A DNA stretch of 64,000 nt, taken from NCBI GenBank assembly GCA_021780195.1, contig JAJXZE010000002.1, positions 20,220 to 84,219 of the forward strand, written 5' to 3'. The notes under the pieces are model-generated. The model was given only the letters and a program-made list of their open reading frames with translations, was not told the DNA's origin and did no database searches. Positions 44,222-60,018 of the stretch are shown piece by piece. Numbering within the stretch: the first letter of the stretch is position 1; every line of letters starts with the position of its first letter. The translations under genes and the position numbers were made by a program. This DNA is from a bacterium (GTDB taxonomy: Bacteria; Patescibacteriota; Minisyncoccia; UBA6257; 2-01-FULL-56-20).

Positions 44222-44242
44222 AAACTATATATAGTTTGTCAA
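44222..44242 (-). promoter_or_regulatory. fic promoter/operator
   Basis: The 16-bp perfect palindrome AAACTATATATAGTTT (44222-44237) abuts a minus-strand TTGACA (44237-44242) about 30 nt upstream of the fic ATG. Confidence 0.5.
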
Positions 44243-44312
44243 AATGCGGCCTTTATATATAGTTATATACCTCGTTTTATGAGGTATATCCTGACTTTCT
44301 TATTGTCTCGGG

Positions 44313-44332
44313 GAAGCGGACGAGGGGAGGGG
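44313..44332. repeat. 20-bp direct repeat, right copy
   Basis: GAAGCGGACGAGGGGAGGGG, identical to 43117-43136. Confidence 0.8.
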
Positions 44333-44371
44333 CGCAGAGCTTTTGAGCGCTCTTTGCACGACCGCTACTAG

Positions 44372-44944: not shown

Positions 44945-45003
44945 GCTTCCAGTATAACAGAAGTGCGGCACGGAAAGCTAAAAATCCTGGTATACTTAAT
45001 CAA

Positions 45004-46446: not shown

Positions 46447-46526
46447 TACTCGCGTACGAGAGGGGGATGGGTTTGGGGTGCGGGATTTCCGGGGGAGCTG
46501 ATTTCCGCTGAGGTAGCGGGGAGAAA

Positions 46527-49349
46527 TTATGCTCCCGTTGACGCGACCCCGCCCTTATTTTTTTCTCCCGGCTTTTCGAAAACACAGATTGTACGGCCCG
46601 CATCATCAAAATAATGGGTAAGAATATACCCATTTCGCAGGGGCGACCAATCCGGAGAGTCGCCGGAGGGGTATTCTCTTGTCATGATGCCCTCTTCGGG
46701 GTTTTGATTTTTTTTGATGGCAGAAACAATTTCCCGACCACTGATTTTTTTGGAAGCGAGTCCCTTGTCGGCGTCGGGAGACAGCTCGATCTTTAAGCTC
46801 GGTACCCCCTTGTAATCATATGCTTCCGTGGCGACAAAGCCGCTCTCGATGTATCTCTTGGTGACGGGCGCCATCGGATTGCAATCGGCGAAAATAGGAA
46901 CCCCGAGGGCACGCTCCTCCCGGAGGGCTTGGTCAAGCATCGTTTCCCCCACTTTGCCTCGTCCATACGCCGGACTCGTGTTGAAAGACCCGAAATAGAT
47001 AGAATCAAGCCTGCCGTTTTTGAATGTGTGGTCGAAGCGGCAGAACGCCGCAACGGCCCCTTTGTGCTTGAAGAGATAGAATCTGGTGTCGGGATTATCG
47101 AGAGATGCATCAAATGACTGGATGAGGGCGTCGATGAATTTTTCGGGATATTCCGTCCGATTGCCATAATTCTTTTGATATATACGGCGCATCTCTTCGA
47201 GAAGCGGAGGATCTTTCTTGAGGTCGGCTCCCGAGGAGACGTTGAATTCGGCGAGTCCGAGGTCGCGAAGGTCGGCGGGAAGCTTGCCGGATCCCTGTTT
47301 TAATGCCTTTATGGTGCTGGTGAAAAGCACGACTTCCGCTTTTATGTCGTCCAGGCGCTCGAAAAGATCACGAGTGTCAGTGCCGAGCTCGGTGGCGTCG
47401 ACAAAGTGCTCTATCAGCTCGTTGCCGCGCCTCAGGAGGTTGCGGGCCACCTGGTTCACGAGTTCTTCGTCCGTCTTTTGTCCCGATGAAAAATTGTCCC
47501 GTAAATATTCCCGAACCTTCTCAATCACCGCCGCTATCTCTGCATATTTTTCAAAAAGCTTCCGGGCGTCATCGCGATCAAGGATATTCGCCAGGCGGAT
47601 GATCGCGTCGCCGTAGTCAGTCCCGCCTTCGGAGCATGCAAGGAAGGAGGTGGCAAAGTTCTTTATATAGATCCGTTCGGGATGGAGGTCGGGCTCCGGT
47701 CCCCCCCGGTGCCACTCAAGGTGGATGGAGGCGTCGTCCGCGATCTTGTCGAGCCCGGCCTTGAGGCGCTGGATTTCATCCACGTTCCGTCCGTCGATAT
47801 AATGGAGGAATTGCACCTGCGCAGAGAGGGGAAAATCGGCCATATCTATCAACAGATCGTCCTCCAGTACTTTGCGCATACTGAGTCGCATCAGGTACTG
47901 GTAGTGATATTCCGCTTCTTCCGACACCGTGCCCGCGGGGAAGAGGCGTCGCAGATATTCCTCCTTGCTGAGTATGGGCGGTGGCACGCTCTTGCCCGCC
48001 TCGAACGTTACGTATTCGGCATTCCTGCGAAGGATCTCTCCCGCCACGAAGGGATGTATGCCATCGACGTCAATACGCTCGAGGTCGAAAAAAAACTTTC
48101 GGCCGGCATCATGCAACTTGCGGTCGAAGGACCACAAGTCCTCCAGTTGCCGCAATGAACCATACCTCGGCGAACCTATTGCAAGCGCGTCATAAATCGC
48201 CTCATCCGCAGGATCATTCCGCGCTATATAGTGCCCCTCGTCAATTCCGGGTTCCTCGTCGCCGTGCGAGATGTCGAAGATGCTTTCAAGGCGCCCGGCG
48301 CGATATTGGCCGAGATAGCCGGGGGCGATAGGAAGGACCGCGTTTGCGATGGGGTTGCCCTCGGTAATGCCGTAGCGCATTCTCAGATTATACGACTCGA
48401 ACATGCGCCTGTAGGTATATATGGTCTTATTCGAGGCACCCCCCGCGATACCGGAGACGACGCCTTCTTCCATGTCGTATCGGTCGTATGAATGGACGGC
48501 TTTGTAGACGTCATCAAGATGCGCCCCGAGAAGATAATTTTCGACCCTTTCCGTGGCATCCTTCGCGAGCTCTTCCACAAATTTCAGCGCAAACCGATTG
48601 TAAGAATTGCCATATTCGTCCAGCGGCTCCTCGTCCGGGGCGATATTCTGCAGGGCCGTAATATCAGCGCTGAAAAAATCTATGATTTTGTGCGCGAGTA
48701 AGTTGCCTTGCGGGTCGTTCGCGCGAATGAGGGCGTCAAGTTGGTTTTCCACCCGCAGGGGCAGGGCGTCTTCGGCCGCCTCCATCTTTTTTGCAAAGTC
48801 CTCCCGCGGGAACAGGGAGTTTCCCAGTCCGTCAATTTCCCCCAGTAATGCGATGATCGGGAACGAGGCAGGCATTCCCTTCGAAGAGATACCCCGCGCA
48901 ACAGCGTCTTCGACGATGTCGATGCGTCGTTGCCGTTCTTCGGGAGTCCCGCCCCGAAGTACAAAATCCACAATTTGAGATCCTTTCTCCGGCCGGGGAG
49001 AAGTATTTCCGGCTTCACAAAGGGCATCGATGGCCGATCCTAGATTCTGCTCCGAAATGGTTTCCGCCGTCGCCCCGCGCGCAATGAGCACATCGGCAAT
49101 CTCATCTGCGTCGCCGACCGGAAGCGGATCGTTGGAGAGAAAGCCGTCCGGCAAGGGGCGCGCGGGTGGAAACTCTTTATTGATCGAAGCATATTCCTGT
49201 CTCTGACGGAAAAGAGGAAGGCCTGGGACAGCCCGGAGCGAATTCACCAATTCCTTCCTGCGGCGCGCTTGCTCATGCGATGACCGTTTTTTGTTCGCGC
49301 CGTATTCCGCGTCAGCGCTCAATTCCACTGTTGATCCTTCTTTGCGCAT
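46527..49349 (-). CDS. 940-aa protein: unknown ~750-aa N-terminal region fused to a C-terminal GNAT-like acetyltransferase
   Basis: The C-terminus has the GNAT acetyl-CoA motif context (SIYFGSFNTSPAYGRGKVGETMLDQAL...YIESGF). The rest shows no recognisable motif. G+C is visibly lower than in the flanking core genes. Confidence 0.6.
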   Translation of the reverse strand: MRKEGSTVELSADAEYGANKKRSSHEQARRRKELVNSLRAVPGLPLFRQRQEYASINKEFPPARPLPDGFLSNDPLPVGDADEIADVLIARGATAETISEQNLGSAIDALCEAGNTSPRPEKGSQIVDFVLRGGTPEERQRRIDIVEDAVARGISSKGMPASFPIIALLGEIDGLGNSLFPREDFAKKMEAAEDALPLRVENQLDALIRANDPQGNLLAHKIIDFFSADITALQNIAPDEEPLDEYGNSYNRFALKFVEELAKDATERVENYLLGAHLDDVYKAVHSYDRYDMEEGVVSGIAGGASNKTIYTYRRMFESYNLRMRYGITEGNPIANAVLPIAPGYLGQYRAGRLESIFDISHGDEEPGIDEGHYIARNDPADEAIYDALAIGSPRYGSLRQLEDLWSFDRKLHDAGRKFFFDLERIDVDGIHPFVAGEILRRNAEYVTFEAGKSVPPPILSKEEYLRRLFPAGTVSEEAEYHYQYLMRLSMRKVLEDDLLIDMADFPLSAQVQFLHYIDGRNVDEIQRLKAGLDKIADDASIHLEWHRGGPEPDLHPERIYIKNFATSFLACSEGGTDYGDAIIRLANILDRDDARKLFEKYAEIAAVIEKVREYLRDNFSSGQKTDEELVNQVARNLLRRGNELIEHFVDATELGTDTRDLFERLDDIKAEVVLFTSTIKALKQGSGKLPADLRDLGLAEFNVSSGADLKKDPPLLEEMRRIYQKNYGNRTEYPEKFIDALIQSFDASLDNPDTRFYLFKHKGAVAAFCRFDHTFKNGRLDSIYFGSFNTSPAYGRGKVGETMLDQALREERALGVPIFADCNPMAPVTKRYIESGFVATEAYDYKGVPSLKIELSPDADKGLASKKISGREIVSAIKKNQNPEEGIMTREYPSGDSPDWSPLRNGYILTHYFDDAGRTICVFEKPGEKNKGGVASTGA

Positions 49350-49353
49350 AGTA

Positions 49354-50136
49354 TTACGCGGATCGTGGGGTTGGCTCCTTTATCTGCTCCGCGAGTCCCC
49401 AGAGATACTCGAAGAGATATTTATGCATGGCGTAAATGTGCGGGTCAGCAAGAATGACGCCGATCATTCTTTCCGGCCGCAGAGTGACGTAAGCGATTTT
49501 TCCGTCATAAATATTCATGATGCTTTCGAATGGAGGGGCGTCCACTCGTATGAGGCGGCTCTCGGTCACGGCGAGGTGGTAATCCTTCAGGTACTCCCGC
49601 GTCGCCGGGGTATCAAGAAGGATGCCGCGCCGTTTGACTCCCAGTTTTTCCCTCTTGGCCACATAAGCGTTATTGAGGGGGCCGATATTTTTCATCACCG
49701 CCTCGATATCCGCATATGAACAGATCTCAGTCCGCGATATAAGCGTATCGTCCAGGACCTTTTTAATGCCCTCAAGGCCTTCGTAGAATAGAACACCGGG
49801 TTTTCCGGATGAAAGGTTGAAATCGGAAACCAGCGAGTTCAGAACTCCCTCGAGTGCGACGTGGGCATCGGCGGCCGCACGCGATTTCTGGTCAGCCAGA
49901 TCTCTTAGTTTCAATGGGTGGGCCGGTTCAAATTGAGCCACCGATCCCGCCTTGTCCCGTCGGACGGCCAGGCCCCCTGCTTCAAGTTCCCCGAGGATCT
50001 TGTAGGTAAGGCCGCGCTTTAGTCCTGCGTAGCTACTGATTTTTCCCGCTGGAAGCAAGCCATGCTTTACTAGGATCTCGTAGAGCTTGGCCTGGTCTGG
50101 AGAAAGTCCCGCCCTAGAAAGGGTCTGTTCGTACAT
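49354..50136 (-). CDS. TrmB-family transcriptional regulator
   Basis: N-terminal winged HTH MYEQTLSRAGLSPDQAKLYEILVKHGLLPAGKISSYAGLKRGLTYKILGELEAGGL plus a C-terminal TrmB-like sensor-length domain. Divergent from the operon promoter. Confidence 0.7.
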   Translation of the reverse strand: MYEQTLSRAGLSPDQAKLYEILVKHGLLPAGKISSYAGLKRGLTYKILGELEAGGLAVRRDKAGSVAQFEPAHPLKLRDLADQKSRAAADAHVALEGVLNSLVSDFNLSSGKPGVLFYEGLEGIKKVLDDTLISRTEICSYADIEAVMKNIGPLNNAYVAKREKLGVKRRGILLDTPATREYLKDYHLAVTESRLIRVDAPPFESIMNIYDGKIAYVTLRPERMIGVILADPHIYAMHKYLFEYLWGLAEQIKEPTPRSA

Positions 50137-50220
50137 GGCTTCATTGCAATAATAACATAAAATTAACGCTTTGGAAAGTGTCACGGGGCGTAAAAAGGGC
50201 TTAATCTTTTTTATTTATCG

Positions 50221-50234
50221 TCATAAAATTATGA
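50221..50234. promoter_or_regulatory. Inverted repeat TCATAA-AA-TTATGA in the divergent control region
   Basis: Lies between the TrmB-type gene and the 50317 promoter. It is a possible operator. Confidence 0.3.
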
Positions 50235-50316
50235 CAATTAATGCTATAAAACTCGGCCATTTGTATCATGAAAATACTTATTTCTGCAGAAATTTAGAAA
50301 GATGCGCCACAAGAAC

Positions 50317-50345
50317 TTGACAGTTTTCATTGCATATGGTAATAT
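50317..50345 (+). promoter_or_regulatory. Near-consensus sigma70-type promoter of the novel operon
   Basis: TTGACA (50317-50322), a 17-nt spacer, then TAATAT (50340-50345). Confidence 0.7.
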
Positions 50346-50351
50346 ATCACC

Positions 50352-51084
50352 AGCACGATGACAGAGGGGGTGGTTCCGGAGGGTGCGCGGCTGGCAGGGA
50401 GGGGAATGGATTGAAGGGATCTATTCCTCTCCCCGAGAGCAAGAGGAGAGGCCTAAGGAGATCCGGGGAAGAGATCTTCATCAGCTCTTTGTAAAACGAC
50501 GGTCGCTCGCGGATATCAGTCTCGAGGAGAGAGTTATCTCGCAGGGCGATTCAGTCAAGCATTCGTCGCGGCGCGTGTCATCGCTTCAAAAGAGCGAGAG
50601 CGGTAGCGGGGCCAGGGAGTCGACGACTCTGCCTCCAATGCCGCGCTGATCAAATCGATCCACAGCGCCACCACGTTTCTTTTTGTGAGATACGTTGCCG
50701 GCGAAACGGTCCAACCCGCCGTTTCTCGGCAAAAATCTCCCCGAAAGAGGAGAGTGATATGGTTCCCTTAGTAAGGAGATCGACTGGAGAGCAAGCTCGG
50801 GTCCGGTTGGTCTCCAGAAACCTCCTTACTAACTCGATCGCAATCTGCGAAAACCGAGGAGAGAGCAGATTGTTAGAGGAGAGAGTAAGGAAGTACCTTG
50901 AAAATTGAATAGCCAAAGTAGTGCTTATAGCGATTATACGTTCGCGGATTATTACACGGGAGCGTCCGAGCTATGGCATTTTGACTTTGAAGTTCCTCCC
51001 GAGTTTGGTTGTCAACTGAGGTTCTGATTTTTGGTGCTTCAGTTGGCAATCAAACTCAAATACGAAACGAAAGGAGGGAGTCAA
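50352..51084 (+). ncRNA. ~730-nt structured leader / candidate ncRNA
   Basis: No convincing ORF. Nested helices lie at 50417-50464, 50695-50732 and 50768-50832 (11 + 7 bp). GAGGAGAG occurs five times (50443, 50524, 50747, 50856, 50876). Confidence 0.45.
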
Positions 51085-51555
51085 ATGAACTATTTGTTGG
51101 GGTCGGGTGAGGCGGTCATTGATCGTTTCAACTCGCACGTTCACGACGGAGTGGCGCGGCTCCTACCCGCGGCGCTGCTTCGAGTTCAGTCACAGGGTAG
51201 GAAGTTCCTCATCGAGGAAGTTGACTTTGGTCAACCAGTCGGTGAGACGATCTGCGTTCCAACCGGGCCAGGGGACGAGATCGTATACGCAATTCGGCCC
51301 AAGAGATTCGGGCACTCGCGGTTCGTCAAAAATCGCAAGCCCGAGCCATGTGGTGCGGTGACGATCATTCTCAAAAGGGATGAATTTGATCCGTACTATG
51401 TCCTAATTACGGCCTTCGTAGGCCATAAACCTGAGCCCGAGCCATGGGATCGCAATTCCAATGGTTTGAGTCGGGACTTCTGGAGTTCTCACGCCCTCAT
51501 CTGGGGGTGCGAGGAAGTCATGCACAACACAGTAACCACGGAATGTCCGTGGTAA
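51085..51555 (+). CDS. Operon gene A: hypothetical protein (156 aa)
   Basis: AGGAGGG SD 7 nt upstream of ATG 51085. Sequence MNYLLGSGEAVIDRF...RFGHSRFV...YYVLITAFVGHKPEPEPWD...FWSSHALIW. No family recognised. Confidence 0.7.
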   Translation: MNYLLGSGEAVIDRFNSHVHDGVARLLPAALLRVQSQGRKFLIEEVDFGQPVGETICVPTGPGDEIVYAIRPKRFGHSRFVKNRKPEPCGAVTIILKRDEFDPYYVLITAFVGHKPEPEPWDRNSNGLSRDFWSSHALIWGCEEVMHNTVTTECPW

Positions 51556-51583
51556 CAACAGCAACAGAGAAAGGAGAAACGAA

Positions 51584-51874
51584 ATGAAAATCAAGAGGTT
51601 GTTTTTGGCGCTGTGCGCCAAGAGGTTGGTTGTCGACATCATCACCGCTGACAACAGAGCGTTTCAGTTGAGCGGTGACCGACGGTTCGAGGGGATGTAT
51701 GAGCGGCTATTCCATGCCGACTCTCACCCCACTCGCAGAAACGTTGGAGAAGGTGAGATGCAGTGGGCTTTCGACCAGGCCAGAGAAATCCGGCTTTGGA
51801 TGGGCCCCACGGAGTATCGCACGATCACAACAACTGAGCTCGAATCCGAGCTCACGCCATTCCCGGTTCGATAG
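51584..51874 (+). CDS. Operon gene B: hypothetical protein (96 aa)
   Basis: AAGGAG SD upstream of the ATG. No family recognised. Confidence 0.6.
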   Translation: MKIKRLFLALCAKRLVVDIITADNRAFQLSGDRRFEGMYERLFHADSHPTRRNVGEGEMQWAFDQAREIRLWMGPTEYRTITTTELESELTPFPVR

Positions 51875-51888
51875 AAAAGGAGGAGACG

Positions 51889-52338
51889 ATGAGTCACATC
51901 AGAAAGGAGACCGTGCGTGGATTCGATACCGTCCACCCGGTTGTTCTGCAAGAAGGTATCAAGGTGGCCTGTCAACTTCTCTCGCTTCAGGGCCTGAAGG
52001 TGACTGATCATGTCTTTGATTGGAGTGGCCATAAGGTCACCGAGTACAACGGCATGAATGTTATCTGCGGCTTGGACGCACAGGGGTCGGCCTCGTCCCA
52101 CAAGTTTGCGGGACTGGGGCTCGCAGTCGACCAGAAGGGCAAGCTCGCGATTGTCGGAGATTTTTATTACTCCGAGCAAGAGCAGCGAGCCCAGGAACTC
52201 AAGAAGATGATCGAAACAGTTCTTGGCGGAGCCTGCTACTTTGCGGCACGGGCGATGATCGCCACGGCCAAGGGGCAGCGGACTCAGATCAAGATCAACC
52301 AAGAAACCCGCCAGCTTCAGCTGGTGGTGCAGATGTGA
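51889..52338 (+). CDS. Operon gene C: DUF1257 (Ycf35)-like protein
   Basis: AAGGAGG SD. The MSH... N-terminus, ~149-aa length and ...RQLQLVVQM C-terminus resemble Ycf35/DUF1257 proteins. Recognised from memory, not searched. Confidence 0.6.
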   Translation: MSHIRKETVRGFDTVHPVVLQEGIKVACQLLSLQGLKVTDHVFDWSGHKVTEYNGMNVICGLDAQGSASSHKFAGLGLAVDQKGKLAIVGDFYYSEQEQRAQELKKMIETVLGGACYFAARAMIATAKGQRTQIKINQETRQLQLVVQM

Positions 52339-52357
52339 GATGAGAAAGGAGGACGTC

Positions 52358-52573
52358 ATGGCAAGAGAAGTCATAACGATCGGCGGAGACGGAGGCGTCG
52401 GCTCTGAAATGTTCGGGTTCAAAGGCAAGAGCTGCCTCAAAGCGGCGGCTGAGATTGCCGAAGAGCTCAAGCGGCTCGGAGTGGTTGCCGACATCGGCGG
52501 AATCAGCATGAAAGAGGATGCCGAGGTCGTGACCGAGACGCAGCAAGCGGCAATGAAGGTCGAAAGGGGATGA
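52358..52573 (+). CDS. Operon gene D: DUF2997-like small protein (71 aa)
   Basis: AAGGAGG SD. Sequence MAREVITIGGDGGVGSEMFGFKGKSCLKAAAEIAEELKRLG matches the remembered DUF2997 pattern (I..DG.V...V.G.KG.sC.....l...lG). Confidence 0.6.
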   Translation: MAREVITIGGDGGVGSEMFGFKGKSCLKAAAEIAEELKRLGVVADIGGISMKEDAEVVTETQQAAMKVERG

Positions 52574-53205
52574 AAGTTATGGTTATGCCCCGCGTAAACC
52601 TTCACGACTTCGTCCCCCGGTCTCGTGCAAACGGGCCGGGGGAGCGAGCGGTGGTTTGGGTGCAGGGTTGCCCTCGGCGTTGTCCGGGGTGTTTCAATCC
52701 CGAAACCTTACCATTCGTTACCAAGAATTGGGTAACCGTTGATGATCTTGAGAGCCGAATCTTGGCTCAAAACAACATTGACGGCGTCACCTTTTCTGGT
52801 GGCGAACCGTTCGCACATGCACAGGCACTTGCCGAGTTGGCGAAAAAGCTGCGCAAGTATGGATTGACGGTGGTGTGTTACACCGGCTACACGCTCAAGC
52901 AACTTAAGGCCGGAAATCGCGAGGACTGGAATGCTCTTCTTTCAGAAGTAGACCTTCTGATTGACGGGCCATTCATCCAAGAGCAGCGGTGCCATGAACC
53001 ATATCGCGGCTCGGCAAACCAAATTCTTCACCTTCTTACCGATCGCATCCGATTGGAGGAAGTTCATGGGCAAAGCCAGACAGCAGAGTTCACACTCGGC
53101 GCTGGCGGAGACATCCAGCAAACTGGATTCCCTGAACTCCCCGACATGGATGCGGTCATGGGAGAAATCTCAGGGATCCTCAAACAGACAGGAGGATCGA
53201 AATGA
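52570..53205 (+). CDS. Operon gene E: NrdG/PflA-type radical-SAM activating enzyme (orphan)
   Basis: The CX3CX2C cluster is present in VWVQGCPRRCPGCFNPE, with the SAM-binding GVTFSGGEPF. About 210 aa, as in NrdG. ATGA overlaps with both neighbours. Confidence 0.8.
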   Translation: MKVMVMPRVNLHDFVPRSRANGPGERAVVWVQGCPRRCPGCFNPETLPFVTKNWVTVDDLESRILAQNNIDGVTFSGGEPFAHAQALAELAKKLRKYGLTVVCYTGYTLKQLKAGNREDWNALLSEVDLLIDGPFIQEQRCHEPYRGSANQILHLLTDRIRLEEVHGQSQTAEFTLGAGGDIQQTGFPELPDMDAVMGEISGILKQTGGSK

Positions 53206-55010
53206 AAGATACGAAGAATTGTGCCGTAACGGCACACAGTTGGTTTGAGTCTTTTGCTCGTGCCTACGCGGCCGAGCTCGGGTACGTGTTTCTTATCTCC
53301 GGCAACATCGCAGATTTATTCCCCTTGGGGAGCGAGTTCGTGACCTTGCGCCAGTTCTGGGCAAGGCAGTTGGATGGCAGAGACATTGTGGTGTTCTGGG
53401 ATAAGTCGGCGGGGTTCGCCTTTGCTGACGAAATCCTCGGCACCAAACCGGCCGAAGGGCAACTCCCGATGAGGGAGAAGTTCAAGGCCGCAGTCGGACT
53501 GAATCAGCAGCAAGGTAATGGCGGCAGCAATGCCTCTAACTTGCTGGCTGGCTTGGCTGGATTGGGCGGCGGCAACAACGGCGCGCTTCCCACTGATCCT
53601 GAGCAAGCTTTCCAGCTTCTGGAAAAATTGCTCTCACAGGGCAAGCCAGAAGATCGGAAGGCGGCGGTAGTCGTGGAGTACATCGAAAGTGTTATCCCCG
53701 AAAACGACTACGGGTCAGTTCCGGCAGTAACGCTCCAACGGTGGGCGTCTCTGGACAGCCCGCTCAAGGGTACCGGCAACCCGGTTATCCTGATCGAGCG
53801 GAATCCAGAACGGGCCTCTAGTGTAGTGAAGCATGACGATTCGTCGGTAGTGCGGATCCACATTCCTCGTCCGAACAAAGAGGAGTTCGGAACATTCATC
53901 CGTCACAGCCTGAAGGTCAACGGCGTTAAGCTCGCCGAAGGCCTGACGGTGGACGTGGCGGCCAACCTGTCAGCCGGGCTACGTTGCAAGGACTTTGACG
54001 ACTTTGTCATGAAGTCGCTCGAGTCCGGCGACCCAATCAACGACACCTTTATTTGGCAGAAAAAGGTGGAGTTGATTGAGAAGCAGTCCGGCGGGGTCCT
54101 GCAGGTGGTAAGACCCAAGCATGGGTTCGAATCCATCGGCGGGCTGGAGCACGTCAAGAGCGCCCTACGGGTGCAGATTGACAAGCTTCGCAGTGGTTCC
54201 AGAACCACTGATAAGGGTTGGATTCTGATGGGGCCTCCGGGAACGGGGAAAACCATCATCGCCGAGGCGCTGGCGAAAGAGTCGGGTGTCAATTTCGTGA
54301 TGCTCGGCAACGTCCTCTCCAAGTATGTGGGTGACTCGGAGAGAAACATGAATCTCGCTATGGAAATTGCCCGAGCCATGGCGCCCACAATCATCTTCGT
54401 TGACGAAGCCGCTGAGGCAATCGGAAACGGAGAGGGCTACAACGGGGATAGCGGCGTCAGCAATCGTGTAAGGGGGAAACTCCAGAACGTGATGGGTGAC
54501 GACTCTGCCCGGGGCCAGCTGTTCTTTATGCTGGCAACGAACTATCCCAATCGTCTGGCACCGGCGATTCTGCGTGAGGGAAGGATGGACAAGCGGGTGC
54601 CACTCTTGGTTCCTGACAGCACCGGGAGAAATGAGATTCTCAAAGCGCTTTGCCTAAAGTATGGCATTGCGTCCGAGGGAATCGACTTTTCACCTGCCCT
54701 TGCCAGTACGGAAGGGTGGACAGGTGCTGAGCTCGAGGCGCTTTTACTCCGAGCGAAGCAATTTGCAGAGGAGGAGGAAGTGCCGGTCGAGACCCGTCAT
54801 TTCGATGAAGCGGTAAAGGATTACATCCCGAGCCGCGACCAGCAGGCGTTCGACCTGATGACCGCGTTGGCCATCAGGTACACGAACTCCAGACGGCTTC
54901 TGCCCGAGGCCTATCGGTCTGCGAATGGAGAAATTCAGAAGCGGATCGATGAGCTCGAGCCTCAGGTGGCCGAGCGCGAAGCAAGGCGCCGGGGCGGGCT
55001 GAAGCTCTAG
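53202..55010 (+). CDS. Operon gene F: Ycf46/CDC48-type AAA+ ATPase (602 aa) ending RRGGLKL
   Basis: Walker A GPPGTGKT, Walker B IIFVDEA, DSGVSNRV (Ycf46-like), and a large non-ATPase N-domain. The C-terminal tail is ...IQKRIDELEPQVAEREARRRGGLKL. Confidence 0.85.
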   Translation: MKDTKNCAVTAHSWFESFARAYAAELGYVFLISGNIADLFPLGSEFVTLRQFWARQLDGRDIVVFWDKSAGFAFADEILGTKPAEGQLPMREKFKAAVGLNQQQGNGGSNASNLLAGLAGLGGGNNGALPTDPEQAFQLLEKLLSQGKPEDRKAAVVVEYIESVIPENDYGSVPAVTLQRWASLDSPLKGTGNPVILIERNPERASSVVKHDDSSVVRIHIPRPNKEEFGTFIRHSLKVNGVKLAEGLTVDVAANLSAGLRCKDFDDFVMKSLESGDPINDTFIWQKKVELIEKQSGGVLQVVRPKHGFESIGGLEHVKSALRVQIDKLRSGSRTTDKGWILMGPPGTGKTIIAEALAKESGVNFVMLGNVLSKYVGDSERNMNLAMEIARAMAPTIIFVDEAAEAIGNGEGYNGDSGVSNRVRGKLQNVMGDDSARGQLFFMLATNYPNRLAPAILREGRMDKRVPLLVPDSTGRNEILKALCLKYGIASEGIDFSPALASTEGWTGAELEALLLRAKQFAEEEEVPVETRHFDEAVKDYIPSRDQQAFDLMTALAIRYTNSRRLLPEAYRSANGEIQKRIDELEPQVAEREARRRGGLKL

Positions 55011-55060: not shown

Positions 55061-55758
55061 TTCTTATGGCGAGAGCCACGGAGAACCCGAATCTTTCCGC
55101 GGGATGGAGTGTGCGGGGAAGATCGGAGGCGGTCTTCGGTAGGGCTGCTTCTTAAAACATGACCCGGCGATGCATCAGGCCGAAGTCTGATGTAGGTTCC
55201 AGCGGCAGATGTTTGTCGGCTATCAGGGATATCCGGCAGACAGTTGGAACAAAGGGGTTTGTACATTTGCGGGTTCATTGGTGTGCGAGCTTCTCTCCCT
55301 GAAATGGAGAAACGAACCAAAAGCGAAGTTAACCTTCAACCGGCGGTTGGCAATCATCCGTCGAGCGTTAACCCCAAGTGGAATTAGCGGTGCTTAATAA
55401 AGGCCACAGGCCTAATGAGCCGCTAAATCCAGCAAGGTCGCAGAGTTCCCTTCGGGGGATAAATAAATTGCATAAGCCGAGAAATCGGAATGCGGATCGC
55501 GCTTGACTTAAAGCGCGAGAAGCGAGTGGCCAGTCAATCGGCCGTCCGATTTGTCCAGTTGCGAGCAACATTGCAGTTGGACTAGGCGAAGATTGAACGC
55601 GCTCATCCGCGAAACTTCAAATTCGGCCTAGGGTTCGATGAGGGGTTCTATAAAATTCTTGACTTTGGCCAAGTCTTGGCGGCACTTGCTTTGCCGTAAC
55701 CTCGGGCTAATCGCAAGTTAGCTCGAGGAAAGCAAGAAGGGTTTAGGGTTTACAGTCC
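55061..55758 (+). ncRNA. Candidate large structured RNA inside the operon
   Basis: About 800 nt without a credible ORF. Stable helices include 55385-55425 (nested), a C(UUCG)G hairpin at 55445-55460, a GAAA-tetraloop hairpin at 55477-55488, an 8-bp helix at 55497-55518 and a three-tier helix at 55685-55736. Confidence 0.5.
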
Positions 55759-55824
55759 GGGCGAGTTGACGCACTCAACTCGCCCCTTCTTCCGAACTCA
55801 TCATCATGGTGATGATGAGTTCGG
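55759..55824 (+). promoter_or_regulatory. Two tandem perfect hairpins preceding gene G
   Basis: GGGCGAGTTGA-CGCAC-TCAACTCGCCC (55759-55785, followed by CTTCTTCC) and CCGAACTCATCATCA-TGG-TGATGATGAGTTCGG (55792-55824). They may act as an attenuator, terminator or processing site. Confidence 0.45.
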
Positions 55825-55868
55825 AGAGAGGGTTCATTGACAACCAAATACGAAAGGAGGAAAGCAGA

Positions 55869-56621
55869 ATGGACAAGGTCCAAATCTACCCGCAAGGGCT
55901 CGGAGAGTACGAGCGGACACTTGGTCTGCGCTGGTCGGTATCATATTACTTGATGCCAGAAGCGCATACGTGCCAAGTGGTCTGCGACGGTCGCGAGCGA
56001 AAGTGTGAGATTTGGATCAACGGTACCACGTACCGAAATCCAGAACTCATGTTCGCTGATGTGATTCATGAGCTCTGCCATTGTAGTTTGGCAGAACGAA
56101 TCGATCCGGCTTTCTCGACGGTTTTCTTTTCCAACAAATGGAATGAAATCAGTCGAGAAGATGAGGCTCGGTTCGGTCAGCTTGCTCGCATGCTCTACTA
56201 CGCGTGGAGTCATGTAGACATTTGGGTGAACGATCTTCGTTTCGCCCACTGGCCAGAGCTCACAAACGAGGATCACAATACTTTTGCACAAGGGATGGTA
56301 GCAATCGTCCAAGCGCAGGAGTGGCGTGTTCTGCAGTCACCCGAAACAGTTCTTGGTCTGGCTCAATACCAGGCTGAGAGGAATCGGCATCATGTCAATA
56401 CGCCTGATCTGTTTGCAGCTTTAGAGGCAAACGGAGTGGGCGTGGATGACCAAATCCGAAAATTGGCTATCTACTTTGAGTCTTTGCCTCGATTGAAGTT
56501 CAATCAGAGAAAGGACTTGAAGGCACTCGAGCGGTCAGTTCAGGACGCAGCGAAGATGCTGAACTTTCCTATCACCCCCCGGCTTGTCTGGGAGGAACGA
56601 TGGGTATGGAGTCTCGACTGA
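55869..56621 (+). CDS. Operon gene G: HExxH-motif protein, putative zinc metallopeptidase
   Basis: Start moved to ATG 55869, after AGGAGG; the ORF-track start 55806 lies inside the hairpin. A single HELCH motif in ELMFADVIHELCHCSLAE. No other family signature recognised. Confidence 0.55.
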   Translation: MDKVQIYPQGLGEYERTLGLRWSVSYYLMPEAHTCQVVCDGRERKCEIWINGTTYRNPELMFADVIHELCHCSLAERIDPAFSTVFFSNKWNEISREDEARFGQLARMLYYAWSHVDIWVNDLRFAHWPELTNEDHNTFAQGMVAIVQAQEWRVLQSPETVLGLAQYQAERNRHHVNTPDLFAALEANGVGVDDQIRKLAIYFESLPRLKFNQRKDLKALERSVQDAAKMLNFPITPRLVWEERWVWSLD

Positions 56622-56658
56622 GACCCAAAGCAAAAAGCAAAAGGAAAGGAGAAATAAA

Positions 56659-57000
56659 ATGAGAAACGGCAATTTCCTGTATCAGCTGAGTTTGCAGGAG
56701 GCTTTCATTGTTCACCGCGGCGTAAGCCAAGGCGGCAAGAAGCTGAATGCAGATCAGCGGAGGATTTTCTGGCAGAGAAATAGCCAGAAGGTCAGCGGTG
56801 TCGAGATTGGTGCCGGCAAGGTGCTGGTCTCACTGGTTGGGCTCAGAGTTCTTCGCGAGAAGAATCTCGTGATCGTTTCCAACCCCGGGAAACCGAGGAT
56901 ATGGACGATCAAGCGGATCATGGAATCCGCTGAGAGGAATCAAGTTATTCCAGAACTGACGCAGGGATCGTCTCAGCGTCGAGGTGGACTGAAGCTGTAG
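56659..57000 (+). CDS. Operon gene H: 113-aa protein ending RRGGLKL
   Basis: Start at ATG 56659, after AAGGAG. The tail ...TIKRIMESAERNQVIPELTQGSSQRRGGLKL shares KRI...RRGGLKL with the AAA+ ATPase. Confidence 0.65.
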   Translation: MRNGNFLYQLSLQEAFIVHRGVSQGGKKLNADQRRIFWQRNSQKVSGVEIGAGKVLVSLVGLRVLREKNLVIVSNPGKPRIWTIKRIMESAERNQVIPELTQGSSQRRGGLKL

Positions 57001-57055
57001 CAATTCCAAACCTGTTTGCCTCAGGCAAACGCAACTGAAATGAAAGGAGATCGAA

Positions 57056-58366
57056 ATGAAAGGGATCTATTACAGCAGACATTGCGGTTATGATAACCGC
57101 GATCAGAACAAGGACGACTGGCGTCAGCCGGTCGAAGGTGAATCCATCATTCTCAATCGATCTGCGTTCTCCAAGTTCTTCCCCGAGGTCGTAATCCAAG
57201 GGGAAATCAAGTGGAGATGCAAGGATCACAGCGATGAGCGGTGCGAGGGCTGCAACGGTTGCGACCAGAGTGTGAAAATCACTTTTGGCCGCGAAGGGGG
57301 GCAGTTCACCGTCAGTCGCACGGACGAGGGCAAGACCCACAACATCGACCAGTTCGGCTGGGGATGGAGTGGGAACGGGGCCAACGAGCACTGGTTCGAT
57401 GATGAGGCGATCTGCCTCAAGTTGGTCAGTGACTATCGATCAAACACAGGCCTTACGGCCGACTCCACAAGGATCGTCTCTTACAAGCGACACGTGGAGG
57501 TTGATTCTTTCCGCGGCGATTGCAAAGATGAAACACGAACATTGCCCAAGGGAGGTAAGATTTGGGCGGAGTTCGTCAATCATCCGGCGCAGTACCGCGC
57601 AAACTGGACGGGCTTCGGGATCGGGACATTGGATTCTGACGCTACGCCAATCATTGGCGACGCATTGGACAACCTGATCGAGACAATGCTTTCCGGCAAC
57701 ATCGGCAAGGAGACGGTGTGCAGACACAACAGTAACGTACGAGCGCACATCGTGACCGCCGATCCCAACAAGGTCTCCCTCTACCTCTGCAAATCCTGTC
57801 GGATGCGCGGAGTGCGGTGGGAAGAGTTCATGACCAGGAATCGCGCGGATACGTGTCCTTATTTCCGCCGCGCTTGCAAGAGCGTAGTGGAGAAATCGGA
57901 CTCGTTCCCCGAGTGGTTCAGCTGGAACGGCGACAATCTGCTTTCTTCTACCCTTCGGCTGAAAGACGGCGAGTACAATGCGTACGAAGTCGTCTATGTT
58001 CGAAGGAAGGAAGGATTCATTCGCCGGTCGGTGCTTCTTCTAAACGATCGCACTCGTGAAGTGTGGATGTTCCGCTACAACGGATTCATCCCGCGCACGA
58101 TGGCGGAGTTCAAAACCAAGTACGCCGAAGGTCGTCAGATTAGCGGCTACATGGGCACCGGTCCGACAGACCGCAGCTACAACAGCGAAAATCCCAATGA
58201 CAGATTCCTGTCAGAGGCGAAGATCGCGGAGGCGATTGCACAGGGTTTGAGCAACCCAGTGTGGAGAAACGGAACCTCCTTGCTCATCTCCATCGATTTG
58301 GGTCGCAACGATCTTCACGATTTCGCGATCCAGAAAGGGGAGATCAACGGCTACCAGATTGCGTAA
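57056..58366 (+). CDS. Operon gene I: 436-aa Cys-rich protein, unknown family
   Basis: AAGGAG SD. Cys clusters C55-x7-C-x2-C-x2-C (CKDHSDERCEGCNGC) and C-x2-C...C-x6-C (LCKSCRMRG...CPYFRRAC). The stop TAA is followed by a 65-codon in-frame open extension. Confidence 0.7.
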   Translation: MKGIYYSRHCGYDNRDQNKDDWRQPVEGESIILNRSAFSKFFPEVVIQGEIKWRCKDHSDERCEGCNGCDQSVKITFGREGGQFTVSRTDEGKTHNIDQFGWGWSGNGANEHWFDDEAICLKLVSDYRSNTGLTADSTRIVSYKRHVEVDSFRGDCKDETRTLPKGGKIWAEFVNHPAQYRANWTGFGIGTLDSDATPIIGDALDNLIETMLSGNIGKETVCRHNSNVRAHIVTADPNKVSLYLCKSCRMRGVRWEEFMTRNRADTCPYFRRACKSVVEKSDSFPEWFSWNGDNLLSSTLRLKDGEYNAYEVVYVRRKEGFIRRSVLLLNDRTREVWMFRYNGFIPRTMAEFKTKYAEGRQISGYMGTGPTDRSYNSENPNDRFLSEAKIAEAIAQGLSNPVWRNGTSLLISIDLGRNDLHDFAIQKGEINGYQIA

Positions 58367-58683
58367 CTTGACCACGAAGGCAAGGAGTGCGAGCTGGAGG
58401 CCAAGCCAACCCCCGCTCCGTTCTACACGGACGCGGGTGCCAGTTACCATCTGATTTACGGTGATTGGGCGCAGCATACGGTTCTCCGCCATCACGGCGA
58501 GGAGCTGTATCGCTCGGATCGGAGCAATTACAAGTGGTTCATGCTCCGAGTCGCAAAGCAGTAGAACCACGCCACCTCGTCCACCCGAGGTACGAATTCA
58601 AAGTGAGTCAGGGGAGTGGATAATGGCTCAAAGGGTTAAAAGGTTTACAATCAAGGGAGCAAGTAATGCACTTGCTTGCTCCC

Positions 58684-58736
58684 TCTCTTTCTCGGATGTG
58701 TATCCGAGCTGATGAGTCCGAAAGGACGAAAAGAGA
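58684..58736 (+). ncRNA. Type III hammerhead ribozyme
   Basis: Reading 5' to 3': TCTCTT (stem III 5' strand), U17, predicted cleavage between 58690 and 58691, then stem I CTCGGAT-GTGT-ATCCGAG. These are followed by the core CUGAUGA, stem II GUCC-GAAA-GGAC, the core GAA, and AAGAGA (stem III 3' strand). All conserved core nucleotides are present. Confidence 0.8.
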
Positions 58737-58996
58737 CAGAACATTAAAAAAGTGATATAATATAAATGGCCATCAAGAGGCCGATGCGTCAGCTTAACGG
58801 AATCGGATCGGGGCAGCAGTGTGAGATCGTCCCCGCTCTGTGTAAATAGAGAAGGGACAAAAATCTCTCTCCTCTAAAACACCGTTCCTCGGTCTGTATA
58901 ATTTCAGGTAAGCTGGCGCGCGGCCTCGTGATGGACATCAGCCCGTCACGAGGAGAGGATGAAAGGCGCAACTTTTCATCCTTTAATATACAAAGT

Positions 58997-59022
58997 CCGC
59001 CTTCTTAAGGCGGCCCTTTTTT
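58997..59022 (+). terminator. Rho-independent terminator
   Basis: CCGCCTT-CTT-AAGGCGG followed by CCCTTTTTT. Confidence 0.7.
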
Positions 59023-59189
59023 GTTTAGTTGAATGGATTTTCAAAATTAAATTTATGAGACAATAGCCGATTCTTGAAACAAAATGACGCATAACAATCT
59101 TGCCTTGCAAAGAATGAAATTCACAGAAAACACTCTCATTGCCCGCGCATTCTTGGTGGAGGCGATTATCACAGGGATCCTCTCGCCAT

Positions 59190-59512
59190 TTACCTCACGC
59201 TCCTGTACCCGCCCGGGACGCCCTCCGTTGAGAGGACGATCTGCCACAGCTGGTTTTTGCGCGCGCGGAAGGAACCGGCGCAGGCGAGAAGGTAGTACTT
59301 TCACATGCGGTAGAAGGTGTCGCCGTACTTTGGGGCGATCTCGGGCCAGCGGCGGTCGAAATTCCGGAACCATGCCATGAGCGTCCGGTCATAGTCGGCG
59401 CCGAAATTGTGCCAGTCCTCCATGACGAAGAGGCGCTCCGCCGCGCGCGTCCGATCTGCGCCACGGAAGGGATCATTCCGGGGCAAAATATGAAAATTAA
59501 AAGGCGCTTCCT
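59190..59512 (-). pseudogene. cfa: Cyclopropane-fatty-acyl-phospholipid synthase (Cfa-family) 3' remnant
   Basis: Three pieces are readable: IFCPGMIPSVAQIGRA (one frame), then RLFVMEDWHNFGADYDRTLMAWFRNF..WPEIAPKYGDTFYRM (second frame), then an in-frame TGA followed by KYYLLACAGSFRARKNQLWQIVL...*. Together they match the Cfa C-terminal ~105 aa. The N-terminal ~270 aa are absent. Confidence 0.75.
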
Positions 59513-59550
59513 CCTCCGCAGGATAGCGCCTATTTCTTTCCGCCGCCCCA

Positions 59551-59898
59551 TCATGGGGCGGGGGTGCGGGGAATCACCTTCTCGTCCTGGATGACGAAAC
59601 ATCCAGACGGGAGTGCCCCTTGGACAAATAACATCTTGTTCGCGCCTACGTCGCGGACAAGATGCTTGTCTCCGTCAAGCGTTGCCGCGACGCAATAGAT
59701 GGTCTGCTCCTGTAGGTTATCCACCCCTGCTGGTCTTCCCAGCTGAATGGAGGTTGCAATTGCAAGTGCTGTCGCAATTGCGGCTATCCCCGCACCGAGG
59801 GGGAACCCTGCAATGGATTCCTCATCTTTCAGCTTCACCACTCCAAAGCCGAGGGCCACGGCCCCGCCGACGGCGAGCAAAATAACTACTCCTATCAT
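59551..59898 (-). CDS. Small membrane protein, hypothetical
   Basis: Two hydrophobic segments (MIGVVILLAVGGAVALGFGVV; GAGIAAIATALAIATSI). No family recognised. Confidence 0.4.
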   Translation of the reverse strand: MIGVVILLAVGGAVALGFGVVKLKDEESIAGFPLGAGIAAIATALAIATSIQLGRPAGVDNLQEQTIYCVAATLDGDKHLVRDVGANKMLFVQGALPSGCFVIQDEKVIPRTPAP

Positions 59899-60018
59899 AG
59901 TAGTCTCCTTTCCGTGGGATTAACCGCCCCACGAGCGGAACTGCTGTATATGATAACATTTCATAAAAGTTTGTCAAGTTGCTATCCTCGCCTTTATAAT
60001 AGGGTGGATATCATTTTC

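What the first reader, a model, noticed from the sequence alone, without database searches (positions are those of the whole stretch)
58655..58736. Canonical type III hammerhead ribozyme downstream of the operon, preceded by a 9-bp clamp hairpin
Read directly from the sequence:
- Stem III: TCTCTT (58684-58689) pairs with AAGAGA (58731-58736).
- U17 lies at 58690, with predicted cleavage between 58690 and 58691.
- Closed stem I: CTCGGAT-GTGT-ATCCGAG (58691-58708).
- Core: CUGAUGA (58709-58715).
- Closed stem II: GUCC-GAAA-GGAC (58716-58727).
- Core: GAA (58728-58730).

The enzyme part CUGAUGAGUCCGAAAGGACGAAA is almost the textbook minimal hammerhead. A GGGAGCAAG/CTTGCTCCC hairpin (58655-58683) abuts it. 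Self-cleavage would set a hairpin-protected 3' end for the operon mRNA. It would also release a ~330-nt downstream RNA running to the terminator at 58997-59022. Bacterial hammerheads are typically linked to phage or mobile DNA, which fits the island context.
Basis: partly seen in the sequence, partly recalled or inferred. Interest (0 to 1): 0.7.

Follow-up and report, generated by a model that had tools for sequence, protein, structure and literature searches.

The report
Genuine hammerhead ribozyme heading a conserved small RNA
The sequence is a real self-cleaving hammerhead ribozyme, a well-known kind of catalytic RNA, in an ultra-small (Patescibacteria) bacterium, and it most likely cuts the transcript just in front of a conserved structured small RNA that no database describes.

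Summary
Positions 58684-58736 (+) hold a complete type III hammerhead: stem III, U17, closed stems I and II, and the CUGAUGA and GAA core. A 12-13 bp hairpin (58654-58684) abuts it.

Rfam's Hammerhead_3 model scores it only 24.1 bits against a gathering score of 48.5. That model also misses this whole subfamily, so the low score does not refute the call.

- **Family model.** A covariance model built from 31 other genomes scores the site 78.3 bits (E 3.6e-25).
- **Covariation.** Across 36 copies, 95.9% of pair cells are paired and 12 of 17 pairs show compensatory changes.
- **Orthologous loci.** Related loci keep the ribozyme with swapped stem II and stem III pairs.
- **Cleavage site.** U17 occurs in 10 of 40 copies and obeys the NUH rule.
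- **Host.** A Patescibacteria genome assembled from a metagenome.
- **Hairpin.** The abutting hairpin is a family feature.

The ~165-nt segment after the ribozyme is a conserved rod-shaped RNA, absent from Rfam. It recurs in 10 other contigs, each time behind a hammerhead or a possible remnant of one.

Best reading: cleavage at 58690/58691 separates a hairpin-capped upstream RNA from a 5'-OH small RNA that ends at the terminator. The hammerhead is a new member of a known kind. The ribozyme-small RNA unit may be new. Cleavage itself was not tested.

The parts
58562..58564 (+). True stop codon (TAG) of the ~510-aa last gene of the cassette. The annotated ORF ends early at an in-frame TAA (58364-58366).
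   Evidence: Homologs are 490-530 aa. P0001 has Q where the window has TAA. The in-frame continuation matches the homolog's C-terminus.
58597..58630 (+). Promoter-like site (TTCAAA-16-GATAAT) inside the invariant block GGAGTGGATAATGGCTCA (58613-58630). It is a possible start of an independent transcript that would begin with the hairpin and ribozyme.
   Evidence: Consensus scan. The block is invariant in window, L020 and L021. The small ORF that starts here (ATG at 58624) is not conserved: L021 has a stop after 6 codons.
58654..58684 (+). Clamp hairpin of 12-13 bp with a 5-nt loop, ending exactly where stem III begins.
   Evidence: Conserved in L020 and L021. Across the family, hairpins of unrelated sequence sit at the same position.
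58684..58736 (+). Type III hammerhead ribozyme. Stem III 58684-89/58731-36; U17 at 58690; stem I 58691-58708; CUGAUGA 58709-15; stem II 58716-27; GAA 58728-30. Predicted cleavage is between 58690 and 58691.
   Evidence: Model R1 gives 78.3 bits, E 3.6e-25. Covariation. Orthologs with compensatory changes.
58753..58761 (+). Extended -10-like TGATATAAT between ribozyme and downstream RNA, with GAGACA 17 nt upstream at 58733-38. It is a possible internal promoter, or part of the 5' tail of the RNA.
   Evidence: A TATAAT/GATAAT-like element sits at the same place in L024, L064 and L068, but there is no room for one in L067, L069 and L071.
58770..58934 (+). Conserved rod-shaped structured RNA. The closing helix is CCAUCAAGAGGCC 58770-82 with GGCCUCGUGAUGG 58922-34. 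An invariant unpaired tract AAUCUCUCUCCUCUAAAACACCG starts at 58862.
   Evidence: Pattern scan, sequences, consensus fold with 57 pairs of which 13 are compensatory, nhmmer E 1e-52 to 1e-58 and L024 at 2.7e-34. No Rfam match.
58957..58981 (+). Extra hairpin GGAUGAAAG...CUUUUCAUCC in the 3' tail. It is preceded by GAGGAGAGG (58950-58), which is complementary to the invariant CUCUCCUC tract.
   Evidence: A matching AGAGGAGAGAG tail is in L064-66 and L070 but not in L067-L072.
58997..59022 (+). Intrinsic terminator (CCGCCTTCTTAAGGCGG plus a T run) that would end the downstream RNA about 332 nt after the cleavage site.
   Evidence: Equivalent terminators follow the RNA in L024, L064-66 and L069-71.

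Best explanation
**What it is.** Positions 58684-58736 encode an active type III hammerhead ribozyme on the + strand.

**How it most likely works.**
1. As RNA polymerase passes, the 12-13 bp hairpin and then the three-way junction fold.
2. Loop 1 (the GAUGUGUAUC region) and the GAAA loop 2 dock, as in the satellite-RNA type of hammerhead.
3. The 2'-OH of U58690 attacks its 3' phosphate.
4. The upstream product ends in hairpin + UCUCUUU with a 2',3'-cyclic phosphate, so its 3' end is buffered against exonucleases. This product is either the tail of the cassette mRNA or a short leader from the promoter-like site at 58597-58624.
5. The downstream product starts with a 5'-OH at C58691. It carries the folded ribozyme body, then the conserved ~165-nt rod-shaped RNA (58770-58934), and stops at the terminator (58997-59022).

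The ribozyme therefore acts as a transcript separator that sets the 5' boundary of a conserved small RNA.

**Shown.** Sequence, fold, conservation and covariation of both ribozyme and RNA, and their repeated adjacency.

**Inferred.** Cleavage activity, which promoter feeds it, and the stabilising roles of the hairpin and the 5'-OH.
For: **Core and fold.**
- The core is complete and the fold is as predicted.
- The modular fold persists in the full 386-nt unit, z-score -9.9.

**Family support.**
- Model R1, built without this locus, scores 78.3 bits, E 3.6e-25, and this is the only hit in the window.
- In 36 copies, 95.9% of pair cells are paired against 70.4% in shuffles (0 of 500 shuffles reach the observed value). 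12 of 17 pairs have double changes. Slid controls reach at most 46%.
- G-U pairs are used, which fits the + strand only.
- Orthologous loci keep the ribozyme with stem II GUCC/GGAC changed to GCUG/CAGC and stem III UCUCUU/AAGAGA changed to UCUGUU/AACAGA.
- U17 is in 10 of 40 copies and is allowed by the NUH rule (PMC3884650).

**Constraint.** Hairpin plus ribozyme is 96% identical and the downstream RNA 94% identical between window and L021. The flanking genes are 74-76% identical.

**Hairpin.** It is enriched at this position across the family (p about 9e-9).

**Downstream RNA.**
- It is conserved with 13 compensatory pairs.
- It is preceded by an intact hammerhead in three lineages: window/L021, L024, and L067/69/71. 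In L067/69/71 only about 2 nt separate the two, which leaves no room for a promoter.

**Precedent.** Bacterial hammerheads that flank genes and cut long transcripts in vitro and in E. coli are described in PMC3088659.
Against: - No cleavage or transcript data exist for this locus.
- Rfam RF00008 scores it below its gathering score.
- U17 is not the favoured cleavage-site base (my own knowledge of minimal-ribozyme kinetics), and the closest orthologs have C17.
- Two lineages of the downstream RNA have an inactive or unrecognisable element in place of the ribozyme (L068/72, and L064-66/70). Cleavage is therefore not indispensable for that RNA.
- The TGATATAAT between ribozyme and RNA could make the RNA independently of the ribozyme.
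- In the full-length fold, CAUCAG (58942-47) can pair with the CUGAUG core.
- The family copies were retrieved with a pattern that fixes loop 1 and part of the core. Only the columns outside that pattern count as independent evidence.
Confidence: 0.72

Rival explanations
1. The ribozyme is active but belongs to an independent small-RNA gene, not to the operon. Transcription starts at the promoter-like site 58597-58624. The hairpin and stem III 5' strand form a ~60-nt leader that the ribozyme removes, and the upstream genes end elsewhere.
For: - The promoter-like site lies inside an invariant block.
- The unit hairpin-ribozyme-RNA-terminator recurs behind unrelated genes in L024, L067, L069 and L071.
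- More distant copies of the gene cassette lack the ribozyme.
- A G(A/G)GUUU(C/A) motif precedes the hairpin in several lineages.
Against: - The promoter match is weak, 9 of 12.
- No convincing terminator separates the gene end (58564) from the hairpin.
- The hairpin itself lacks a U tract.
- Family members usually sit 10-100 nt after a co-directional ORF.
Confidence: 0.3
2. The element is a decaying or inactive hammerhead relic. The C17-to-U17 change and the truncated upstream gene are signs that this copy of the island is degenerating. The downstream RNA is made from its own TGATATAAT promoter.
For: - The closest orthologs have C17.
- The upstream gene carries a premature TAA.
- Inactive relics exist in front of the same RNA in L068/72.
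- An extended -10 lies between ribozyme and RNA.
Against: - All 13 core positions, all three stems and both loops are intact.
- U17 is found in a quarter of family members, in otherwise perfect copies, and satisfies NUH (PMC3884650).
- The element is 96% identical to L021 while neighbouring genes are 74-76% identical.
Confidence: 0.1
3. The ribozyme is a processing signal of a phage or other mobile element that happens to lie here. Its function concerns that element's own RNA and not the neighbouring small RNA.
For: - The same loop-1 type of hammerhead occurs in 27 viral contigs, and the same enzyme strand in 17.
- The locus lies in a lower-GC island next to a tRNA gene, with defence-like genes.
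- The literature links bacterial hammerheads to prophages (PMC3088659, PMC6155905).
Against: - No phage structural, integrase or transposase genes were found around it.
- The 36 genomic copies lie next to ordinary, unrelated genes in Patescibacteria.
- The downstream RNA is absent from viral contigs.
Confidence: 0.1
4. The match is a chance resemblance or an engineered or contaminant sequence, such as a synthetic ribozyme insulator.
For: The enzyme strand is close to the textbook minimal hammerhead, and Rfam scores it below its gathering score.
Against: - E is 3.6e-25 with an independent model.
- Natural orthologs carry compensatory changes.
- Dozens of metagenome-assembled genomes carry relatives.
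- The flanks are native Patescibacteria sequence.
Confidence: 0.01

Closest known systems
Type III hammerheads of plant virus satellite RNAs and virusoids (the sTRSV type, Rfam RF00008)
   Same: The catalytic core, the topology (stem III open) and a 4-bp stem II with a 4-nt purine-rich loop (GAAA here; sTRSV's is from memory) are the same. Stem I carries the GAUGUGUAUC loop region. The records L007 (366 nt) and L082 (377 nt) in the viral collection carry the identical GGAUGUGUAUCC...CUGAUGAGUCCGAAAGGACGAAA. That they are satellite RNAs is my inference from their size.
   Different: This copy is DNA-encoded in a bacterial chromosome. It is a single copy in one polarity, with no sign of rolling-circle replication. 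It has U17 instead of C17, and a hairpin abuts stem III. It scores only 24.1 bits with RF00008.
Bacterial and prophage hammerheads of types I, II and III (Perreault et al. 2011, PMC3088659; reviewed in PMC6155905)
   Same: These are intergenic self-cleaving motifs in bacterial DNA. They sit between co-directional genes and are proposed to cut long transcripts into shorter units.
   Different: - The host lineage is Patescibacteria. The paper library holds no paper that combines hammerhead with Patescibacteria or candidate phyla radiation.
- The link here is not to an integrase or prophage but to a specific conserved structured RNA.
- The upstream hairpin is conserved across the family.
Synthetic ribozyme insulators such as RiboJ (an sTRSV hammerhead plus a hairpin; from memory, not checked here)
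   Same: A type III hammerhead is used to cut away upstream RNA, so that the downstream RNA has a defined, structured 5' end whatever lies upstream. A helper hairpin is part of the design.
   Different: This element is natural. The hairpin is upstream of the ribozyme, on the discarded or upstream fragment, rather than downstream. The payload is a non-coding RNA and not an mRNA.
HDV-like 'theta' ribozymes next to phage tRNAs (from memory, not checked here)
   Same: A small self-cleaving ribozyme is dedicated to maturing one end of a specific non-coding RNA.
   Different: The ribozyme class differs, it defines the other end (3' of tRNAs), and the host elements differ. The hairpins before hammerheads here are not tRNAs.

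Membership tests
Hammerhead ribozyme | Conserved catalytic core: C3 U4 G5 A6 N7 G8 A9, G12 A13 A14, the A15.1-U16.1 pair and the G10.1-C11.1 pair | tested here: met
   CUGAUGA 58709-15; GAA 58728-30; A58731-U58689; G58716-C58727.
Hammerhead ribozyme | Cleavage site obeys NUH (position 17 is not G) | tested here: met
   The triplet is U58688-U58689-U58690. U17 is in 10 of 40 family copies. The rule is quoted from PMC3884650.
Hammerhead ribozyme | Three helices around the core, supported by covariation | tested here: met
   The minimum-energy fold is the three-way junction. 95.9% of cells are paired and 12 of 17 pairs have compensatory changes, while slid controls reach at most 46%.
Hammerhead ribozyme, type III topology | Stems I and II closed by loops, stem III open | tested here: met
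   Loop GUGU on stem I, loop GAAA on stem II, and the 5' and 3' ends leave through stem III.
Hammerhead ribozyme (natural, fast-cleaving) | Loop 1-loop 2 tertiary contact | not testable with these tools
   Both loops are of the type seen in the satellite-size records L007 and L082. Loop 2 is RAAA and A39-A41 are invariant in 36 copies. Loop 1 was fixed by the search pattern, so its conservation is not evidence.
Rfam RF00008 Hammerhead_3 | Score at or above the curated gathering score (48.5 bits) | tested here: not met
   The score is 24.1 bits, E 0.012 over 701 nt. None of the 18 other genomic copies of this subfamily reaches the gathering score either, and L067 and L069 score 31.3 bits. This reflects the model's make-up rather than the sequence.
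Hammerhead ribozyme | Site-specific self-cleavage that gives 2',3'-cyclic phosphate and 5'-OH ends | not testable with these tools
   Needs in vitro transcription or end mapping.
Intrinsic terminator (considered for the upstream hairpin) | A G+C-rich hairpin followed directly by a run of U | tested here: inconclusive
   The scan lists 58654-58684 as terminator-like, with tail CTCTTTCTCG. The tail is a mixed C/U tract that forms stem III, unlike the clear T runs at 59014-59022 and behind the RNA in L024 and L064-L071.

The most novel reading that the evidence does not exclude
The hairpin-hammerhead-rod RNA-terminator arrangement is a dedicated gene architecture of Patescibacteria. The hammerhead has been recruited to mature the 5' end of one specific, previously undescribed ~165-nt structured RNA. 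That RNA carries an invariant unpaired CUCUCUCCUCU tract, which could bind Shine-Dalgarno-like sequences. The ribozyme would also uncouple the RNA from upstream transcription. This would be a concrete, testable biological role for a bacterial hammerhead, something the field still lists as an open question (PMC6155905).
Probability: 0.35. Interest if true: 0.7.

Novelty: new member of a known kind. Interest (0 to 1): 0.45.

Why it matters
Hammerheads are the commonest self-cleaving ribozymes, yet what they do in bacteria is still unsettled (PMC3088659, PMC6155905). This case adds three things.

- **A blind spot in annotation.** A whole subfamily, common in Patescibacteria genomes and in some phage contigs, is invisible to the standard Rfam gathering score.
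- **A recurring partner structure.** A hairpin abuts stem III across the family, which points to a designed 3' end for the upstream fragment.
- **A repeated pairing with one conserved structured RNA.** This turns the question of what a bacterial hammerhead is for into an experiment: map the ends of that RNA.

It also flags an undescribed RNA family in a poorly understood bacterial phylum.

Tried and rejected
- **Rfam at gathering score, whole window.** No hammerhead was reported. This is uninformative for this subfamily.
- **Phage database, blastn of 56000-60000.** Nothing relevant, so this is not a known phage.
- **Other hammerheads in the window.** The loose pattern gives 4 hits, but only 58709 sits in a real fold. 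R1 finds no second copy.
- **Ribozyme as a fixed part of the upstream cassette** (radical SAM, AAA+ and the ~510-aa gene). Rejected. It is present in L020-L022 but absent from L019 and L059-L063.
- **Ribozymes sitting after tRNAs** (T-loop-like hairpins in L005, L010, L016 and L029). Rejected. ARAGORN finds no tRNA there.
- **Ribozyme plus boxA-like motif marking rRNA leaders.** Rejected. The loci hold no rRNA, and the downstream genes are unrelated.
- **Small ORF 58624-58712 (MAQRVKRF...) with a GGAG ribosome-binding site.** Rejected. Its frame and length are not conserved in L020 and L021.
- **Downstream RNA as a known family** (6S, SRP, tmRNA, riboswitch). No Rfam match even at E up to 10. 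Its downstream genes differ between loci, so it is not a leader for one gene. It is absent from viral contigs.
- **Element before the RNA in L064-66 and L070 as another ribozyme class.** No Rfam or R1 support. I read it as a possible hammerhead remnant by eye only.
- **Shared flanking gene family across the 36 loci.** Only one weakly recurrent ~260-aa family appears, and it is not adjacent to the ribozyme.

Full report
**Observation**

The sequence matches the finding at every coordinate.
- Hairpin: GGGAGCAAG 58655-63 with CTTGCTCCC 58675-83.
- Stem III: TCTCTT 58684-89 with AAGAGA 58731-36.
- U17: 58690.
- Stem I: 58691-58708, with loop GUGU.
- Core: CUGAUGA 58709-15 and GAA 58728-30.
- Stem II: GUCC-GAAA-GGAC, 58716-27.

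RNAfold gives the three-way junction as both minimum-energy and centroid structure. With flanks it adds a 12-13 bp upstream hairpin. The z-scores are -2.7 and -4.05. Only one register is consistent with a hammerhead, and it puts cleavage after U58690 (triplet UUU).

**Is it more than a look-alike?**

Rfam at its gathering scores reports only three tRNAs in the window. In E-value mode RF00008 gives a local match of 24.1 bits against a gathering score of 48.5.
- I scanned one genome per species for GGATGTGTATCCNNNCTGATGAG and found 36 loci, nearly all in Patescibacteria metagenome-assembled genomes.
- Rfam at gathering score called none of the 18 loci I scanned. It did call a different hammerhead in L040.
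- Two further copies score 31.3 bits.

The Rfam model is simply blind to this subfamily.

The positive evidence comes from three tests.
- **Covariation.** On a 36-sequence, 55-column alignment (A2), 95.9% of pair cells are standard pairs against 70.4% in shuffles (0 of 500 reach the observed value). 12 of 17 pairs show changes on both sides. Sliding the partners drops pairing to 30-46%.
- **Independence of the columns.** The columns that covary are the outer stem I, stem II and stem III. All lie outside the fixed letters of the search pattern. G-U pairs occur, which fits the + strand only.
- **Independent model.** A covariance model built from 31 copies, excluding the window and its close relatives (A3, R1), scores the window site 78.3 bits, E 3.6e-25. 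Nothing else in the 64 kb exceeds 11.8 bits.

**Orthologous loci**

The upstream ORF (57056-58366) has about 40 homologs of 490-530 aa, mostly from Patescibacteria. Contigs carrying them show a conserved cassette:
- small proteins, including a DUF2997 protein;
- a Fer4_12 radical SAM protein;
- a 600-aa AAA+ ATPase;
- a gap of about 700 nt;
- a 113-aa protein and the ~510-aa protein.

L020, L021 and L022 have the hairpin and hammerhead at the same place (77-79 bits).
- L020 changes stem II from GUCC/GGAC to GCUG/CAGC.
- L020 also changes stem III from UCUCUU/AAGAGA to UCUGUU/AACAGA.
- L020 and L021 have C17 where the window has U17.

L019 and L059-L063 have the cassette but no hammerhead. The ribozyme is therefore attached to what lies downstream and is not a part of the cassette.

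**Host and setting**

FtsH in the window is 86% identical to proteins named Minisyncoccia or Paceibacterota. The source is a 90-kb contig. The ribozyme lies at the end of a lower-GC stretch that starts near a tRNA gene. That stretch holds a Fic/SoFic-like gene and the cassette. ThyA and DHFR follow. No phage genes or known phage DNA were found.

**Family anatomy**

- **Position 17.** In 40 parsed copies it is C in 26, U in 10, A in 3 and G in 1. The G copy, L034, has a 5' half that does not pair. U17 is therefore a normal variant and obeys the NUH rule (PMC3884650).
- **Upstream hairpin.** A stable hairpin (at most -8 kcal/mol) ends within 2 nt of stem III in 19 of 38 loci, against 11.8% of control positions (p about 9e-9). 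The hairpin sequences are unrelated between lineages, so it is the structure and its position that are kept.
- **Downstream motif.** A boxA-like TCTTT(A/G/T) lies 3-8 nt after stem III in 12 of the 14 motif-bearing loci; in all, 14 of 38 loci carry it within 40 nt, against 5.5% of control positions. The window lacks it.
- **Neighbouring genes.** They are unrelated: holB-like, NUDIX, SHMT, helicase, zeta-toxin-like, Csx3.
- **Viral contigs.** The same loop-1 type is in 27 viral contigs and the same enzyme strand is in 17. Among them are records of 322-457 nt, which I take from their size to be plant satellite RNAs.

**The downstream segment**

Window and L021 are 96% identical over hairpin plus ribozyme and 94% identical over the next ~200 nt. 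The adjacent genes are only 74-76% identical.

A scan of metagenome contigs with the invariant block AATCTCTCTCCTCT..AACACCG.TC.TCGGTCTG found nine more loci in other gene contexts. A profile search then found the same RNA right after the hammerhead of L024, a Kaiserbacteria genome.

The consensus fold is a long irregular rod of 57 pairs, 13 of them with compensatory changes. For example, the closing helix is CCAUCAAGAGGCC/GGCCUCGUGAUGG in the window (58770-82/58922-34) and CGCCAAGAGGCGG/CCGCCUCUUGGCG in L067. An invariant pyrimidine tract (CUCUCUCCUCU) is predicted to be unpaired. No Rfam family matches, and the RNA is not in viral contigs.

What precedes this RNA differs by lineage.
- **Window/L021 and L024:** an intact hammerhead.
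- **L067/69/71:** an intact hammerhead (70.8 bits) ending only about 2 nt before the RNA.
- **L068/72:** a clear remnant. Its 3' half resembles the long-stem-II hammerhead of L035, but CUGAUGA is lost.
- **L064-66/70:** a hairpin plus an element that keeps a stem III, C17 and GAAA by eye but has no statistical support.

The whole window unit, 58640-59025, folds modularly with a z-score of -9.9.

**Mechanism**

The best-supported reading is co-transcriptional self-cleavage between U58690 and C58691.
- The upstream fragment would end in hairpin + UCUCUUU with a cyclic phosphate.
- The downstream fragment would begin with a 5'-OH, carry the ribozyme body and the rod RNA, and end at the terminator 58997-59022, about 332 nt in all.

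The hairpin, contiguous with the 5' strand of a short (6-bp) stem III, can stack on it and help it form. After cleavage it would protect the new 3' end.

These steps are inferred. What is shown is the sequence, fold, covariation, conservation and repeated adjacency.

Two promoter-like sites leave open which transcript is cut, and whether some of the RNA is made without the ribozyme. They are 58597-58624 and TGATATAAT at 58753-61. The relics in two lineages show that the RNA can exist without an active ribozyme.

**Comparison and novelty**

The element meets every sequence and structure criterion of a type III hammerhead. It fails only the Rfam gathering score.

Bacterial type III hammerheads in intergenic regions, with a proposed role in cutting long transcripts, are established (PMC3088659, PMC6155905). 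The ribozyme is therefore a new member of a known kind.

No paper in the library combines hammerhead with Patescibacteria or candidate phyla radiation. The family-wide hairpin and the pairing with an undescribed structured RNA appear not to have been reported. Absence from a partial library is weak evidence.

**Caveats**

- Family copies were gathered with patterns that fix loop 1 and the core.
- The rod RNA alignment has 11 sequences from about five lineages.
- Collection scans were capped, so frequencies are not genome-wide.
- No experiment or transcript data was available.

Noticed in passing
window 58770-58934, with tail to 59022; also L021, L024 and L064-L072: A conserved rod-shaped structured RNA of about 165 nt lies directly after the ribozyme. 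It has an invariant unpaired tract AAUCUCUCUCCUCUAAA(A)CACCG, has no Rfam match, and usually ends at an intrinsic terminator. It sits in unrelated gene contexts.
   Followed up: partly
window 55163-55848: The 'gap' inside the cassette is conserved at DNA level: 88% with L019, 87% with L020, 78% with L021, and patches in L059 and L060. Substitutions show no three-base periodicity (33/24/26, against 45/16/182 in the AAA+ gene). No frame stays open, and the fold z-score is -9.1. It is a candidate large non-coding RNA of the cassette.
   Followed up: partly
window 58364-58366: An in-frame TAA sits where homolog P0001 has Gln (a CAA codon is my inference). It truncates the ~510-aa Cys-rich protein to 436 aa. 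The remaining 65 codons are still intact in frame up to the TAG at 58562-64. The cause could be a nonsense mutation, a pseudogene or read-through.
   Followed up: partly
window 55745-55832 compared with 58640-58700: A second module of similar layout lies earlier in the cassette: GGGTTTACA, a G+C-rich hairpin, a pyrimidine tract CTTCTTC, a second hairpin, then GAGAGAGG. It has no hammerhead core. GTTTACA-N(3-6)-GGG occurs only at these two places in the window. It may be a paralogous or decayed copy.
   Followed up: partly
L027, L028, L031, L032, L034, L036-L040, L049, L051, L052, L054 (after the ribozyme; 3-8 nt in 12 of them, 20 nt in L037): A boxA-like motif (G/A)(T/C)TCTTT(A/G)AAA follows the hammerhead in 14 of 38 loci, against 5.5% of control positions, with no rRNA nearby. 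It may link ribozyme cleavage with NusB/NusE-type antitermination or protection from Rho. This is speculative.
   Followed up: partly
L035, L049, L052; L068/L072: Some family members carry a 25-35-nt insertion in stem II with a shared sequence (..GCCGAT..CGGCGG.CAGGCGAAAGGAC). L068 and L072 keep this 3' half but have lost CUGAUGA, so they are dead hammerheads in front of the rod RNA.
   Followed up: no
L053 1317-1371 and 3089-3143: Two identical copies lie 1772 bp apart inside a direct repeat. In them the A15.1-U16.1 pair is inverted to U-A (GAAUUUGCAGA). This is an unusual core variant that may be inactive.
   Followed up: no
window 58942-58947: CAUCAG downstream of the rod RNA is complementary to the CUGAUG core. 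It replaces stem III in the minimum-energy fold of the full 386-nt unit. It is present in L021 but not in other lineages, so it is probably incidental. It could trap uncleaved full-length RNA.
   Followed up: no
window 43278-55010: The lower-GC stretch after the tRNA gene at 42948-43018 holds an HTH-Fic protein (PADLOC PDC-S04/SoFic-like), unknown proteins of 940 and 480 aa, and the DUF2997, radical SAM and AAA+ (IetA-like) cassette. That cassette is conserved in many Patescibacteria contigs. It may be an uncharacterised defence or mobile module.
   Followed up: partly
L005, L010, L016, L029 (just before their hammerheads): The hairpins abutting the ribozyme have T-loop-like sequences (GGGGGTTCAAACCCCC, GAGGGTTCAAATCCCTC), but ARAGORN finds no tRNA there.
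   Followed up: yes
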